64,000 nt of DNA from Candidatus Omnitrophota bacterium (GTDB lineage: Bacteria; Omnitrophota; Gorgyraeia; Gygaellales; Profunditerraquicolaceae): assembly GCA_016208765.1 (NCBI GenBank), contig JACQXK010000065.1:962-64961 (forward strand), read 5' to 3'. Of this stretch, positions 45,001 to 48,000 are shown one piece after another. Made by a program: the position numbers. Position 1 is the stretch's first letter; every line of letters begins with the position of its first letter.

Positions 45001-48000
45001 ATGAAAATATTGAAATTTTGGTCAGCAGCGAAAATGTTACCTATCTAAACGGTAAGGTAGTAAATACCCAGGAGTTGAAATCATTTCTTAAGCAGGCCGC
45101 AAAAAAGAGTCAATCAGTCTTAATAAAGGCGGATAAGCGCGCCTCTCTTGGCAGGGTTGTGGATATTTGGGATTTAGCCAGGGATTTGGGAATTACCCAG
45201 ATAAATATCGCCACAAATCAGGAATAATGACTCAGCTTTTTAAAAAGGCCATATTAGTTTCTTTCGCAGGGCATCTTGCTTTTTTAGGGATTTTTAACTT
45301 TTCTTTTGGCAGGCGTCTGCCTCCTGTTGATTATTCTGCGGTTTCTTTTTTGGGGCAGGTGTTTAGTACCAGGGAAATAATCCCGCGCATCCTTAAAGAA
45401 CCTTTAAAACAGGAACAGAAAAAAACTTTTCTTAGGGCCGAATTATTGCATCAGTCGGCAGAAAAAGAATATTTTGCGTCTTTTAAGCCTGCTGTAACTT
45501 TTGAAAGCTCGCCAGAAAAGGCCATTTTTAATGAAGCTCGTCTTGGGCCGTATGTTTTTCCTGTAAAAAAAGAACCGGCAATATATTTGCGTCCTTTATT
45601 ACCTTATAGTTTTACTCTTTATTTTAATGACAGGCAGACGGCGCATGTGGAGTTATTGTATAAAATCACCCTTTTAAGAGAAAATGGTTATCCCGTAGTT
45701 AAAAGAAAGATTTCCTCCGGGAACTTAGAGGTTGATTTATTAAGTATGCGCTATATCAGTCATTATCTTTTTGTCCGTAAGGCCTCGGTTAATCCGGAGA
45801 GTTGGCAAGCCGTAAAGATTGATTTATCACAAGGGCCTGCAAATCAATAGATTATGATTAGTATTGATTTTTCTGTTGGGATAGCAGTTTATGTCGCTCT
45901 AAGTTTGGCGGTTATTTTAATATTCTGGATTTTTACCGCTAAACAGAAGGACAAAGATCTAACCTTGGACTCACGTTATATATGGTTTTGTAGTATATGT
46001 ACTTATACCTATATTAACACCAAAGAGGATTTAATTTCTGTTTGCCCGCGTTGCGGAAATTATAACAAAAAGTCAGAAAACAGTTGACAAAATCTTCAGT
46101 GCTTATAGAATAAAACTGCATTACTAAAATGGAGGAATATATGATTACTGAAATAGGCATAGTTGCAGGTGATATTTGGCATTATCTGGATCAGCATGGG
46201 GAGGTTACGCTTTCAGAGTTATTAAGAGGAATAGATAAGAGCAGGGATAACGTATTGATGAGTTTAGGGTGGCTTGCCCGCGAAGGCCACGTAGTTGTGC
46301 TTAAGGCAGGGTTGGATTACAAGGTGTACTTGCGTAAGAATACCTGATGAAAATACGCAACAACCGGCAAGGCGCAGCTCTTATTCTTATCTTAGGGGTA
46401 ATTCTAATAATTACTTTGCTGGCTAATGTTATTTTAACCATACTTTCCAGTCAGGCCCGGCTTACCCACCATCAAATAAACCGCATCCGCGCGTATTATG
46501 CCAATTTTGCAGGCATAAACCTGGCGCTTGAGAAATTGAGAACCGGGCAGTGGTTAAGCGGACAAACATGGTATCTGGGAAAGTGCAGCGGTAGCCAATG
46601 TATCCAGGACGCAGACATCCCATATTTAGTAACTATAAATATCGGACTCGTTGCAAGTACAATTCCCGGTACTACAAGAATAGATATAACTTCTAATTAT
46701 GCTTCCCAATAGTTTTTCTCTAAACCATAAATTTAACCAACTGATATAGCTTGAGTAAATTTGTTATAATTGCGGTATATTTCAGTCATGTTAATTATAA
46801 TTTGAGTAAGTTTAAGTAAGTTTGAGTAAAAAAACACTTGACAATATAAGAATTTCGTGTTTTACTTACCTTAAGTATTTTTTAATTTTCTAAGAGGTAA
46901 GTTTATGGCAAAATTAATGGATATTGATGAATTAGCGGATTATTTGAGGTTAAAAAAGCAGACCATTTATAATTGGCTGCACCAGTCTCGGATTTCCGGG
47001 ATCAAGGTTGGAGGTGTCTGGAGATTTGAGCGTAAAGAGATTGATAACTGGTTGAAAAGCAGAAGGCGCGCGAGCATTGATTTAAAAAGCGGAGAAAAAC
47101 AATGAGTTCTCTTGGAATTTATTTTGGCCCTAAAACAATCAGTGTAGTAGAAAGCAGTGGCCGTAGAGTTACTAAGACTATCCGCATACTTCAAACAGCG
47201 GTTTCCGGAGCTGAGTTGGAGGAGAAGGTCCCACCAGAAGCAAAATTAATTGAAATTATAGCCATATTTAAAGATGAATTACGCAGGAACGATGTTAATG
47301 CCAAGGAGGCGTCTGTATGCCTTTCAGGCAAAGATTTGGTCATACGAACATTTGAATTGCCGATTATGCCGCGTAATGAAATGCAAGGCGCGGTAAATTT
47401 TGAGGCAAAGAAATACATTCCTTTTAAAGTTGAAGACCTTATTACAGATTTCCAGGCTCAGGTAGATAAGTCTACAAAAGAAAATTTTGTTTTATTCCTG
47501 GGGATCAAAAAAGAGGCTTTTGACAGGTATGTGTCAATATTTAAACAGTTAAATATAAAGCTTAAATCTGTTGAATATTCTGCTTTTAGTTTATTAAGAT
47601 GCCTTAAGCTTGCCAACCTTGGTAACAAAGGCGTTGTTGCTGTTTTGGGAGTTGATCCTGAATCTGAAGATGAGGTTAATTTTACTGTTTTGGAGAATGG
47701 TTTTCCTTTGTTTAGCCGCGACATAACATTAACCTCTTTACCTGAGGAAATTTCTGAGGGCCAGCCCAGCCAGCCTTTAGAGAAATTAAAGGCGGAGATT
47801 CGCGTTTCCCTGGATTATTTTCAACGAAAGTTCCCCGATAAAAGGCCGCAAAAAATTTATTTTATTTCAGCAGATGAAGAAAAAATACCATTAGAAGGGC
47901 TTATGAGTGAATTGGGATTTCAGTCTCAATTTGTAGAGATAAAGAAATTCCTGGGGCCTCAAGCTGTTGCTTCACTTGGGCTGATGAAAGGGCTTGGCGC

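What the first reader, a model, noticed from the sequence alone, without database searches (positions are those of the whole stretch)
46740..47105. Direct-repeat array and small HTH_17 protein heading the pilMNOPQ-pilB-pilC operon
Three tandem 10-bp repeats (TTTGAGTAAG / TTTAAGTAAG / TTTGAGTAAA), plus an upstream fourth copy, sit just 5' of a promoter candidate. The first gene of the operon is a 66-aa excisionase-type HTH protein whose stop overlaps the pilM start. This suggests a dedicated repeat-binding regulator for pilus biogenesis.
Basis: partly seen in the sequence, partly recalled or inferred. Interest (0 to 1): 0.55.

Follow-up and report, generated by a model that had tools for sequence, protein, structure and literature searches.

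The report
Conserved repeat operator of Omnitrophota pilus operon
Three 10-bp direct repeats sit just upstream of a strong promoter that drives a tiny Xis/BldC-like DNA-binding protein and the type IV pilus machinery genes. This promoter-repeat-protein package is conserved across the uncultured phylum Omnitrophota, so it is very probably the local control switch for pilus production, though binding has not been shown.

Summary
Three tandem 10-bp units lie at 46801-46830, with a fourth copy at 46750-46759. They abut a sigma-70-type promoter: TTGACA at 46838, a 17-nt spacer, and an extended -10 TGTTTTACT ending at 46866. A 66-aa HTH_17 gene (46905-47105) follows, and its stop overlaps the start of a PilM-PilN fusion. 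PilO, a PilP-like protein, PilQ, PilB and PilC come next.

In all 80 related Omnitrophota genomes fetched, the HTH gene heads the same operon. AGTAAG units sit in fixed register at -33 (73/76) and -23 (57/76) from the -35 hexamer, always in one orientation. They are essentially absent elsewhere (TAAGTAAGT: 86 copies here against 3 in about 650 kb). A neighbouring promoter in the same genomes shows no such block.

The modelled HTH protein best matches BldC, Xis and RdfS. These proteins bind direct repeats head-to-tail, one helical turn apart.

The best reading is that the HTH protein multimerises on the repeats and autoregulates the pilus operon, probably negatively. Which protein binds, and the sign of regulation, are inferred rather than shown. 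I found no description of this module in the searchable literature. I rate it a new variant of a known regulator type, of moderate interest.

The parts
46745..46770 (+). Distal element TATAG-CTTGAGTAAA-TTTGTTATAAT: one repeat unit flanked by TATAAT-like boxes
   Evidence: It matches the consensus TATAAT-n-TAAGTAAGT-n-TATTATAA at 18 of 23 positions. A good copy (at least 17/23) is present in 57 of 75 loci, 51-76 bp upstream of the proximal array. The promoter scan also flags CTGATA-18-TATAAT with TG at 46741-46770.
46801..46830 (+). Three tandem 10-bp direct repeats (TTTGAGTAAG / TTTAAGTAAG / TTTGAGTAAA), the proposed operator or nucleation site
   Evidence: The AGTAAG cores lie 33, 23 and 13 nt before the TTGACA. 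Across species, the -33 unit is present in 73/76 loci, the -23 unit in 57/76 and the -13 unit in only 4/76. Information content at -37..-17 is 1.17 bits, against 0.08 in a control promoter of the same genomes.
46828..46837 (+). A-tract AAAAAAACAC abutting the -35 hexamer (UP-element-like); overlaps repeat unit 3
   Evidence: Each position is 73-97% conserved across 75 species. A similar A-tract precedes the control DUF2582 promoter, so this is a generic promoter feature of the phylum.
46838..46843 (+). -35 hexamer TTGACA
   Evidence: Present within 200 nt upstream of the HTH start in 77 of 81 sequences scanned. L029 carries it 286 nt upstream, behind an insertion. The other three contigs end too close to the gene to show it.
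46844..46851 (+). Spacer half-unit ATATAAGA (consensus AAATAAGT), a repeat-like element inside the core promoter
   Evidence: Spacer information content is 1.05 bits, against 0.40 in the control promoter. In the divergent 55%-GC lineage (L203/L204), the only RAGTAAR in each locus lies at this place (TTGACAAAGTAAAAG).
46858..46866 (+). Extended -10 element TGTTTTACT (TG plus TTTACT; consensus TGtTtTAAT). The transcription start is predicted near 46872-46875.
   Evidence: In the 75-species profile, TG is 97-99% conserved and the hexamer 79-100%. The start site is inferred from promoter geometry and has not been measured.
46892..46898 (+). Ribosome-binding site AAGAGGT, 7 nt before the ATG
   Evidence: Read directly from the sequence.
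46905..47105 (+). 66-aa single-domain HTH_17 (excisionase/MerR-like winged helix) protein, first gene of the operon
   Evidence: Pfam and NCBIfam hits. More than 1297 homologues, the best 120 at 71-86% identity and named, where named, as Omnitrophota proteins. AF2 model with pLDDT 80; best folds are BldC-DNA 6AMA, Pukovnik Xis 4J2N and RdfS 8DGL.
47102..48652 (+). PilM-PilN fusion (516 aa); its start overlaps the HTH stop (ATGA)
   Evidence: PilM_2 and PilN domains. The stop and start overlap in 68 of 79 loci.
48654..49160 (+). PilO
   Evidence: PF04350, E=1.5e-9.
49141..49653 (+). PilP-like protein (170 aa)
   Evidence: Only a weak T2SSB hit below the cut-off. The assignment rests on its position between PilO and PilQ.
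49655..51232 (+). PilQ secretin
   Evidence: Secretin and Secretin_N domains.
51232..52950 (+). PilB assembly ATPase
   Evidence: T2SSE (E=2.7e-139) and MshEN domains.
52950..54188 (+). PilC platform protein, last gene of the tightly packed unit
   Evidence: T2SSF, E=3.8e-57. The major pilin at 54385 has its own promoter (TTGACT-17-TATAAT) without repeats.

Best explanation
The repeats are the operator of a phylum-wide conserved promoter that transcribes one unit: the HTH_17 gene, then pilM-N, pilO, a pilP-like gene, pilQ, pilB and pilC.

The 66-aa HTH_17 protein is made from that same transcript and is translationally coupled to PilM-N. It binds the 10-bp units as monomers arranged head-to-tail, one per helical turn. 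This is the binding mode of BldC and of Xis/Apl-type proteins.

Cooperative filling of the two or three high-affinity units upstream of the -35 hexamer nucleates a short protein-DNA filament. The filament extends over the A-tract and -35 region to the repeat-like half-unit in the promoter spacer. The distal unit about 50-75 bp upstream may also take part. The filament then limits RNA polymerase access. This is negative autoregulation, and it sets the level of the pilus assembly machinery.

Shown here: the elements, their conservation, orientation, register and exclusivity; the operon structure; the fold class of the protein.

Inferred: that this protein is the binder, that binding is multimeric, and that the effect is repression.
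For: 1. Anatomy of the window.
2. In 80 of 80 genome loci the HTH gene directly precedes PilM-N, PilO, PilQ and PilB. Stop and start overlap in 68 of 79.
3. Consensus of 75 species: AGTAAGT-n-TaaGTAAgt-TAtatAAAAAAAcAC-TTGACA-17 nt-TGtTtTAAT.
4. AGTAAG occurs 175 times forward and 2 times reverse around the promoter. There are 147 units in the 10-bp register against at most 11 in any shifted register.
5. Exclusivity. The dimer occurs 69 times here and once elsewhere. TAAGTAAGT occurs 86 times here and 3 times elsewhere in about 650 kb. The 64-kb window has no other dimer.
6. Internal control. The DUF2582 promoter of the same genomes conserves only the A-tract, -35 and -10. Its information content at -37..-17 is 0.08 bits against 1.17, and in the spacer 0.40 against 1.05.
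7. Fold. The best matches are the BldC-DNA complex, Pukovnik Xis, RdfS and the GIsul2 excisionase (TM normalised to target 0.63-0.78). BldC binds direct repeats head-to-tail as cooperative multimers (PMC5859096). RDF sites are direct repeats one helical turn apart. Apl needs three adjacent operators, spreads into neighbouring DNA and represses promoters (PMC7498355). D29 Gp36 is a Xis-like repressor on direct repeats (PMC12266134).
8. For repression. The core promoter is near-consensus and should not need an activator. A repeat-like unit lies inside the spacer and is the one element kept in the divergent lineage L203/L204.
9. The other local DNA-binding protein, DUF2582, models as an ArsR/SmtB/MarR-type winged helix. 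Its best structural matches are dimeric repressors.
10. Relatives with 3-6 tandem HTH_17 domains in one chain exist, which fits array-wise binding.
Against: - There is no binding evidence of any kind.
- Protein and motif are both almost invariant, so no co-variation links them.
- L203/L204 keep the HTH gene, with an identical recognition helix, upstream of pilM but lack the upstream tandem array.
- A relative with the same recognition helix sits in a non-pilus context without AGTAAG repeats (L205/L206).
- The main units lie at about -72 to -43 from the predicted start, a position more typical of activators than repressors.
- By sequence the protein is not a BldC family member (17.7 bits against a cut-off of 77), and BLASTP finds no alignment to BldC.
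- The Foldseek E-values are weak (0.03), as expected for a 66-residue domain.
- The 80 loci were chosen by HTH similarity, which inflates the apparent conservation of the protein.
- Only about 650 kb plus the 64-kb window were scanned, so other genomic targets cannot be excluded.
Confidence: 0.4

Rival explanations
1. The same protein binds the same repeats but acts as an activator. HTH_17 multimers at about -72 to -43 bend the DNA or contact the RNA polymerase alpha subunit. This gives positive autoregulation and an on/off (bistable) pilus switch.
For: The unit positions (-33 and -23 from the -35 hexamer, about -70 to -50 from the predicted start) match class I activator sites. The BldC paper describes it as a pleiotropic regulator, and I recall, without checking the papers here, that it both represses and activates. 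Binding causes strong DNA bending (PMC5859096). A regulator placed as first gene of its own operon can form a positive loop.
Against: The core promoter is already near-consensus: TTGACA, a 17-nt spacer, an extended -10 and an A-tract. Activator-dependent promoters usually have poor -35 elements. A repeat-like unit inside the spacer would hinder polymerase. The characterised Xis-like transcription regulators read here (Apl, D29 Gp36) are repressors.
Confidence: 0.2
2. The repeats are a real operator, but another protein binds them: the neighbouring DUF2582 winged-helix protein, or an unlinked regulator such as an OmpR/PhoB-type response regulator that binds tandem direct repeats next to -35. 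On this reading the HTH_17 protein acts elsewhere.
For: DUF2582 is encoded two genes upstream in 68 of 80 loci and is as conserved as the HTH protein (median 73% identity). Response regulators are the classic binders of direct repeats at this position (discussion in PMC5859096). Two lineages carry the HTH protein without tandem repeats.
Against: DUF2582 has the ArsR/SmtB/MarR fold, and its best structural matches are dimeric repressors. A palindrome, TTCCG-W-CGGAA, lies in the same intergenic region in half the species and would suit it better. No response regulator gene was found among the window genes annotated around the operon. A motif exclusive to one promoter argues for a local, dedicated factor. 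The adjacent HTH protein belongs to a fold class known for exactly this site architecture.
Confidence: 0.25
3. No dedicated protein is involved. The repeats are a sequence-dependent promoter feature, such as an extended UP element or intrinsic curvature, that boosts transcription.
For: The units are A/T-rich, phased at one helical turn, and lie where distal UP subsites occur. A generic A-tract precedes other promoters of the phylum.
Against: The G residues are among the most conserved positions (79-93% in the first unit, 64-82% in the second), which is not typical of UP elements. The neighbouring DUF2582 promoter in the same genomes, and the major-pilin promoter in the window, lack the block. 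The motif recurs as a distal copy with its own conserved flanks.
Confidence: 0.06
4. The repeats act at the RNA level in a read-through or distal-promoter transcript, or they are a neutral slippage product.
For: No terminator is predicted between the upstream gene and the repeats. The strict single orientation would also fit an RNA element.
Against: Rfam gives no match. The fixed register to the -35 hexamer is a DNA-level constraint. Conservation across genomes whose PilM-N is only about 45% identical excludes neutrality.
Confidence: 0.02
5. The HTH_17 protein is a genuine excisionase, and the repeats are its arm-type sites in a mobile element.
For: TIGR01764 'excise' domain hit. The closest solved sequence relative is a phage Xis. 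A similar repeat array lies near a tRNA gene in an unrelated contig, L137.
Against: No recombinase domain turned up among the genes annotated around the operon in the window. Chromosomal synteny with pilus and ExbBD genes holds in 80 of 80 species. The gene is translationally coupled to pilM.
Confidence: 0.02

Closest known systems
BldC of Streptomyces (68-aa MerR-like winged helix; PDB 6AMA/6AMK; PMC5859096)
   Same: Both are single-domain proteins of about 66-68 residues with no dimerisation or effector domain. BldC is the best structural match. BldC binds variable numbers of direct repeats head-to-tail as cooperative multimers at promoters. The T..xW pattern of the recognition helix and the GG..R wing are shared. 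That last point rests on my own pattern alignment; the BldC sequence was recalled from memory and agrees with the residue numbers printed in the paper.
   Different: No sequence-level membership: NF033787 scores 17.7 bits against a cut-off of 77, and BLASTP finds nothing. The BldC repeat is 9 bp, AATTxxxx(C), read by Arg30 and Lys26. Here the unit is 10 bp with an AGTAAG core, and the matching residues are Asn23 and Gln19. BldC is a pleiotropic developmental regulator with many targets. Here a single promoter, its own, carries the motif in all sequence examined.
Recombination directionality factors that double as transcription regulators: Apl of phage 186, lambda/Pukovnik Xis, RdfS, D29 Gp36 (PMC7498355, PMC11963761, PMC12266134)
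   Same: HTH_17/'excise' domain. The closest solved sequence relative is Pukovnik Xis, and these proteins are among the top fold matches. Their sites are direct repeats one helical turn apart. Apl needs three adjacent operators, spreads cooperatively into flanking DNA and represses promoters.
   Different: No integrase, att site or mobile element is present, and the gene is chromosomal and syntenic across a phylum. It is translationally coupled to a pilus machinery gene. No recombination role is indicated.
Known regulators of type IV pilus genes (PilS-PilR with sigma-54, AlgR/FimS, Vfr); from general knowledge
   Same: They give dedicated transcriptional control of pilus genes. PilR also uses tandem upstream sites.
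   Different: Those are multi-domain response regulators or CRP-type proteins encoded apart from pilMNOPQ. They mainly control pilin or minor-pilin genes. Here a 66-aa single-domain protein is the first cistron of the machinery operon, the promoter is sigma-70-type, and the pilin promoter lacks the motif.
MAD1/MADS1 helix-turn-helix protein of methylation-associated defence systems (NF047737)
   Same: It is the best NCBIfam hit (68.9 bits), so it is a close HTH_17 subfamily by sequence.
   Different: The score is below the curated cut-off of 80. No methyltransferase or other defence genes are adjacent. The context is the pilus operon in every genome.

Membership tests
Pfam HTH_17 (PF12728) / TIGR01764 excisionase-type DNA-binding domain | Profile score above the curated cut-off over the whole domain | tested here: met
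   PF12728: 56.7 bits against 27, residues 4-54, covering profile positions 1-51 of 51. TIGR01764: 49.7 bits against 28.8.
BldC family (NF033787) | Sequence membership: profile score above the cut-off | tested here: not met
   17.7 bits against a cut-off of 77. BLASTP against BldC gives no alignment.
BldC family (NF033787) | Single winged-helix domain without a coiled-coil or effector domain, with a BldC-like fold | tested here: met
   66 aa. The AF2 model shows beta-alpha-alpha-beta-beta-alpha with pLDDT 80. The top Foldseek hit is 6AMA (BldC-DNA), with TM 0.72-0.78 normalised to the target.
BldC family (NF033787) | Head-to-tail cooperative binding to direct repeats | not testable with these tools
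   Suitable sites exist: two or three units at 10-bp spacing in one orientation. Binding needs EMSA, footprinting or a protein-DNA structure.
Recombination directionality factor (Xis/excisionase) | Partnership with a site-specific recombinase and att sites on a mobile element | tested here: not met
   No recombinase domain was found among the window genes annotated around the locus. Chromosomal pilus synteny is constant in 80 of 80 loci.
Classical MerR regulators | C-terminal coiled-coil dimerisation helix plus effector domain; palindromic operator in a 19-20-bp spacer | tested here: not met
   The protein ends after one helix (66 aa). The promoter spacer is 17 nt, and the sites are direct repeats, not palindromes.
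MADS defence system component MAD1 (NF047737) | Equivalog score above the cut-off, and neighbouring MADS genes | tested here: not met
   68.9 bits against 80. The neighbours are pilus and ExbBD genes.
Type IVa pilus assembly operon (pilMNOPQ plus pilB and pilC) | Presence of PilM, PilN, PilO, the secretin PilQ, the ATPase PilB and the platform protein PilC in one co-directional cluster | tested here: met
   Domains PilM_2 plus PilN (fused), PilO, Secretin, T2SSE and T2SSF. PilP is only weakly supported. The genes abut or overlap from 46905 to 54188.
Sigma-70-type promoter with extended -10 | -35 and -10 hexamers at 17-nt spacing, with TG one base upstream of the -10 | tested here: met
   TTGACA-17-TG-T-TTTACT in the window. 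The consensus TTGACA-17-TGtTtTAAT is 79-100% conserved across 75 species. Activity and the start site have not been measured.

The most novel reading that the evidence does not exclude
A domesticated excisionase-type protein has become the phylum-wide master switch of type IVa pili in Omnitrophota. It forms a cooperative head-to-tail filament on helically phased direct repeats. Together with a distal site and a second, palindrome-binding winged-helix protein (DUF2582), it sets a sharp threshold or on/off state for the attachment organelle on which these ultra-small, host-dependent bacteria rely. Because the cis-element is nearly invariant, one protein-DNA pair would report pilus regulation across an entire uncultured phylum.
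Probability: 0.3. Interest if true: 0.65.

Novelty: new variant of a known kind. Interest (0 to 1): 0.5.

Why it matters
Omnitrophota are uncultured, mostly ultra-small bacteria. Their type IVa pili are thought to mediate attachment to hosts or prey (PMC10066038). Nothing about how these pili are regulated appears in the papers I could search.

This locus offers a complete and very strongly conserved regulatory module. It comprises a promoter, oriented 10-bp operators, a distal site and a 66-aa candidate regulator. The module can be tested in vitro or in E. coli without culturing the organism.

It would also extend the BldC/Xis mode of DNA recognition, head-to-tail multimers on direct repeats, to a housekeeping surface-organelle operon in a distant phylum. 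It would be an example of an excisionase-type domain recruited for chromosomal gene control.

The near-invariant motif (TAAGTAAGT-n-TAAGTAAG, then about 15 nt, then TTGACA) is also a practical marker for finding the pilus operon promoter in Omnitrophota assemblies.

Tried and rejected
1. Metagenome-wide scan for TAAGTAAGTnTAAGTAAG, meant to define a regulon. It was swamped by (TAAG)n microsatellites, probably from eukaryotic DNA. Only 6 of 120 hits were HTH-pil loci, so it was uninformative.
2. Helical-phasing test of the spacing between distal and proximal sites. Clusters appear at 53-56, 64-67 and 73-76 bp. The Rayleigh statistic is flat (R about 0.5 for all periods from 9 to 12.5) and the genomes are related, so no claim is made.
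3. Co-variation test using a divergent HTH subfamily. L203/L204 keep HTH followed by pilM, but carry only spacer and flanking half-units. L205/L206 are in a non-pilus context without repeats. The recognition helix is unchanged in both, so the test could not discriminate.
4. RNA element: Rfam finds nothing at E up to 1.
5. Sequence link to BldC: none by BLASTP. Only Pukovnik Xis appears weakly among solved structures.
6. HTH-PilM fusion proteins as a Rosetta-stone link: none among the longer relatives. Those are receiver-domain or unrelated fusions.
7. Internal promoter inside the HTH gene (TTGAGG-18-TATAAT at 46944-46973). The TATAAT comes from the codons of the invariant TIYNW motif, and the -35 is not conserved, so it is incidental.
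8. The other TTTGAGTAAG in the window (41975, minus strand) lies inside a TPR protein gene and is a chance match.
9. The pilin promoter as a second target: it has no AGTAAG units.
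Full report
**What is in the window**

The intergenic region 46713-46904 lies between a PilX/GspK-like pseudopilin gene (46347-46712) and a 66-aa ORF (46905-47105). All genes here are on the + strand.

Three perfect-register 10-bp units occupy 46801-46830: TTTGAGTAAG, TTTAAGTAAG and TTTGAGTAAA. A fourth copy, CTTGAGTAAA, is at 46750-46759. Tandem Repeats Finder scores the array 51, the highest of 23 arrays in the 64-kb window.

Single units are not rarer than chance: 4 were found and 1.76 expected. The dimer AGTAAG-N4-AGTAAG with at most 1 mismatch occurs nowhere else in the window, with 0.28 expected.

Immediately after the third unit come the following elements:
- an A-tract at 46828-46834;
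- TTGACA at 46838-46843;
- a 17-nt spacer;
- TG at 46858-46859;
- TTTACT at 46861-46866;
- a ribosome-binding site, AAGAGGT, at 46892-46898;
- the ATG at 46905.

The ORF is a single HTH_17 / 'excise' domain. Its TGA overlaps the ATG of a 516-aa PilM-PilN fusion (ATGA at 47102-47105). PilO, a PilP-like protein, the PilQ secretin, the PilB ATPase and the PilC platform protein follow without gaps up to 54188. The one refinement is that pilM and pilN are fused.

**Where it comes from, and how conserved it is**

The HTH protein has more than 1297 homologues. The best 120 are 71-86% identical and nearly all 66 aa long. Where a source names them, they are Omnitrophota proteins.

A scan of one genome per species found 454 loci that encode a relative, and the best 80 were fetched. 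In all 80 the HTH gene is directly followed by PilM-N, PilO, PilQ and PilB wherever the contig reaches that far. Most are preceded by a DUF2582 winged-helix gene and the PilX-like gene.

The HTH stop overlaps the pilM-N start in 68 of 79 loci. That explains the conserved C-terminal SGEKQ: it encodes pilM's GGAG ribosome-binding site.

Median identity to the window protein is 74% for the HTH protein. It is 45% for PilM-N, 35% for PilO and 51% for PilQ in the same genomes. The loci were chosen by HTH similarity, which inflates the first figure. Even so, the coding neighbours show that these genomes are deeply diverged, so neutral non-coding sequence should be scrambled.

**The cis-element is conserved, oriented, phased and exclusive**

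Aligning 75 species on the TTGACA gives this consensus:

t.taAGTAAGT.TaaGTAAgt.TAtatAAAAAAAcAC-TTGACA-AaataA.t.t.TTATGtTtTAAT

Most positions from -37 to +31 are 70-100% conserved.

Around the promoter, AGTAAG occurs 175 times in the forward orientation and twice in reverse.

Units with at most 1 mismatch sit 33 nt before the TTGACA in 73 of 76 loci. They sit at -23 in 57, at -43 in 11 and at -13 in only 4. Those four are the window, L050, L059 and L060. In total 147 units are in register, against at most 11 in any shifted register. The usual state is therefore two units. The window's third unit replaces what is elsewhere a degenerate TATATAAA.

The motif is close to exclusive to this promoter:
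- The dimer is found 69 times upstream of the HTH gene and once elsewhere in 647 kb.
- Exact TAAGTAAGT is found 86 times against 3.
- L029, which first seemed to lack the element, has a roughly 220-nt insertion in the leader and keeps the whole promoter.

An internal control strengthens the case. The DUF2582 gene of the same genomes has its own promoter (window TTGACA at 46084). Only its A-tract, -35 and -10 are conserved. Information content at -37..-17 is 0.08 bits against 1.17 for the HTH promoter. In the spacer it is 0.40 against 1.05.

The major-pilin promoter in the window (TTGACT-17-TATAAT, around 54274-54302) also lacks the units. So the A-tract and hexamers are generic to the phylum. 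The AGTAAG units and the conserved spacer are specific to this promoter.

A distal element, TATAAT-n-TAAGTAAGT-n-TATTATAA, is present in 57 of 75 loci, 51-76 bp upstream of the proximal array. In the window it is 46745-46770. Its spacing clusters at about 54, 65 and 75 bp. That hints at helical phasing, but phasing could not be established.

**The protein**

The AlphaFold2 model has pLDDT 80, with a disordered tail at residues 59-66. It is a winged helix: strand, two helices, a beta hairpin and a C-terminal helix.

The best Foldseek matches in the PDB are BldC bound to smeA-ssfA DNA (6AMA), mycobacteriophage Pukovnik Xis (4J2N), the RdfS excisionase (8DGL), the GIsul2 excisionase (8C3T) and RacA. 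Probabilities are about 1.0 and TM scores normalised to the target are 0.6-0.78. The E-values are weak (0.03), as expected for 66 residues.

By sequence the only solved relative is Pukovnik Xis (E=0.025). The BldC family model is not met (17.7 bits against 77), and BLASTP against BldC gives nothing.

The proteins it resembles share one mode of action.
- BldC binds variable numbers of direct repeats as head-to-tail cooperative multimers, using only its winged helix (PMC5859096).
- RDF binding sites are direct repeats one helical turn apart.
- Apl needs three adjacent operators, bends DNA, spreads into neighbouring DNA and represses promoters (PMC7498355).
- D29 Gp36 is a Xis-like repressor that binds direct repeats (PMC12266134).

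The exhaustive representative search also found relatives that carry 3-6 HTH_17 domains in a single chain. This fits array-wise recognition.

The second small DNA-binding protein of the locus is DUF2582. It is 68 aa from the likely start at 46141, and its model has pLDDT 92. It has the ArsR/SmtB/MarR-type winged-helix fold, and its best structural matches are dimeric repressors. It therefore suits a palindrome better than head-to-tail repeats.

Such a palindrome exists. TTyCG-W-CGrAA lies between the distal and proximal elements in 37 of 74 species, where the background expectation is 0.08 per 150 nt. It is absent from the window's HTH promoter.

**Most likely mechanism**

The repeats are the operator of the promoter that transcribes the HTH gene and the pilus machinery as one unit. 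I am about 90% confident that they are a selected cis-regulatory element of this promoter.

The most probable binder is the operon's own HTH_17 protein. This covers the 0.40 and 0.20 readings in the budget below, about 0.6 together. It would bind one monomer per 10-bp unit, head-to-tail.

I favour negative autoregulation, for four reasons:
- The core promoter is near-consensus and should fire without help.
- A repeat-like half-unit sits inside the spacer. Its consensus is AAATAAGT, and in the window it is ATATAAGA at 46844-46851.
- In the divergent 55%-GC lineage L203/L204, which lacks the upstream array, the only RAGTAAR in each 6-8-kb locus is in exactly that spacer (TTGACAAAGTAAAAG). An ATAAGT lies 16 nt before the -35.
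- The characterised Xis-like transcription regulators read here are repressors that spread from nucleation sites.

On this model the upstream units nucleate a filament that grows over the -35 and spacer as the protein accumulates. Translational coupling to PilM-N ties the amount of regulator to the amount of machinery made.

Activation from the -70 to -45 position is the main alternative for the same protein-DNA pair.

My probability budget:

| Reading | Probability |
|---|---|
| HTH protein binds and represses | 0.40 |
| HTH protein binds and activates | 0.20 |
| Another protein binds | 0.25 |
| Protein-independent promoter feature | 0.06 |
| RNA-level element or neutral slippage | 0.02 |
| Mobile-element relic | 0.02 |
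| None of these | 0.05 |

**What weakens the case**

- Nothing shows binding.
- Protein and motif are both nearly invariant, so co-variation could not be used.
- L203/L204 keep an identical recognition helix without the tandem array.
- L205/L206 carry a relative with the same helix in a non-pilus context without repeats.
- No terminator is predicted upstream of the repeats, so read-through transcription across them is possible. That does not bear on DNA binding.
- The regulon could be examined only in the 64-kb window and about 650 kb of flanks. The metagenome motif scan was swamped by microsatellites.

**Comparison with what is known, and novelty**

The protein is a member of the HTH_17 / 'excise' domain family. 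It works most like BldC and the dual-function RDFs, but it fails the BldC and MAD1 sequence models. It also has none of the defining context of an excisionase or of a classical MerR regulator (see the membership table).

The known pilus regulators (PilSR, AlgR, Vfr; from general knowledge) are of different types and are not the first cistron of pilMNOPQ.

Full-text searches gave no paper that links an HTH_17 or excisionase-type protein to a pilus operon. The two Omnitrophota genome surveys discuss pili but no regulator or promoter.

I rate the finding a new variant of a known kind. The conserved module is solid and apparently undescribed, and the mechanism is plausible but untested. Interest is moderate (0.5): it is a clean, phylum-wide and experimentally tractable regulatory module in an uncultured lineage, but not a new principle.

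Noticed in passing
L053, L054, L004, L037 and 33 other loci, about 51-66 nt before the TTGACA; also window 54259-54269: A GC-rich near-palindrome, TTyCG-W-CGrAA (for example TTTTCCGTCGGAAAA), lies between the distal and proximal repeat elements in 37 of 74 species. The background expectation is 0.08 per 150 nt. It is missing from the window's HTH promoter. However, CTCGTCGGAAG sits directly upstream of the -35 of the window's major-pilin promoter. It is a candidate site for a second, dimeric regulator, possibly DUF2582.
   Followed up: partly
window 46084-46712: A DUF2582 winged-helix gene (likely start 46141, 68 aa) and a PilX/GspK-like pseudopilin gene form a separate conserved two-gene unit, joined by an ATGA overlap at 46347. 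The unit has its own promoter (TTGACA at 46084, 16 nt, TAGAAT). DUF2582 is about as conserved across the phylum (median 73% identity) as the HTH_17 protein. Its fold is ArsR/SmtB/MarR-like.
   Followed up: partly
window 45854-46087: A 77-aa membrane-anchored zinc-ribbon protein (C-x2-C ... CPRCGNYNKK) immediately precedes the DUF2582 promoter. The coding sequence of its C-terminal CPRCG motif is recognisable upstream of DUF2582 in many of the related loci.
   Followed up: no
L029 1610-1890: A roughly 220-nt insertion separates the conserved promoter from the HTH start in one species. It resembles a miniature mobile element and carries inverted repeats (for example ggccacgacttacgg / ccgtaagtcgtatggcc). 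The same kind of repeat (aacttatg...ccataagtt) recurs upstream of DUF2582 in several loci.
   Followed up: no
L137 (Ga0182021_10078408), reverse strand, first 85 nt: An array of at least seven TTTAAGTAAG-like units at 10-11-bp spacing lies at the end of a peat-metagenome contig. Sequence that looks like a tRNA gene (not checked with a tRNA finder) lies about 600 nt away. No HTH_17 or pilus gene is on the contig. It may be the binding array of a related Xis-type protein at an attachment site.
   Followed up: no
P0246, P0255, P0261, P0262, P0276, P0277: Relatives of the HTH protein exist with 3 to 6 HTH_17 domains in tandem in one polypeptide, about 70-80 residues per unit. These are effectively covalent head-to-tail arrays and would be expected to read direct repeats.
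   Followed up: partly
L203 and L204 (55% GC Omnitrophota): A divergent branch keeps the HTH gene upstream of pilM but separated from it by 19-38 nt, not overlapping. It lacks the upstream tandem units. It retains an AAGTAAA unit in the promoter spacer and an ATAAGT 16 nt before the -35.
   Followed up: yes
window 46944-46973: A promoter-like match (TTGAGG-18-TATAAT) lies inside the HTH gene. It is produced by the codons of the invariant YLRL and TIYNW motifs. The -35 part is not conserved across species, so it is probably incidental.
   Followed up: yes
window 1-64000: Every plausible gene of at least 90 aa in the 64-kb window is on the + strand. The pilus cluster is flanked by UvrA, TPR proteins and an ExbB-ExbD-TonB-like set upstream. 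Downstream are one pilin (54385-54816) followed by three ORFs with pilin-type N-terminal methylation motifs (54779-56304), then a GIY-YIG protein.
   Followed up: partly
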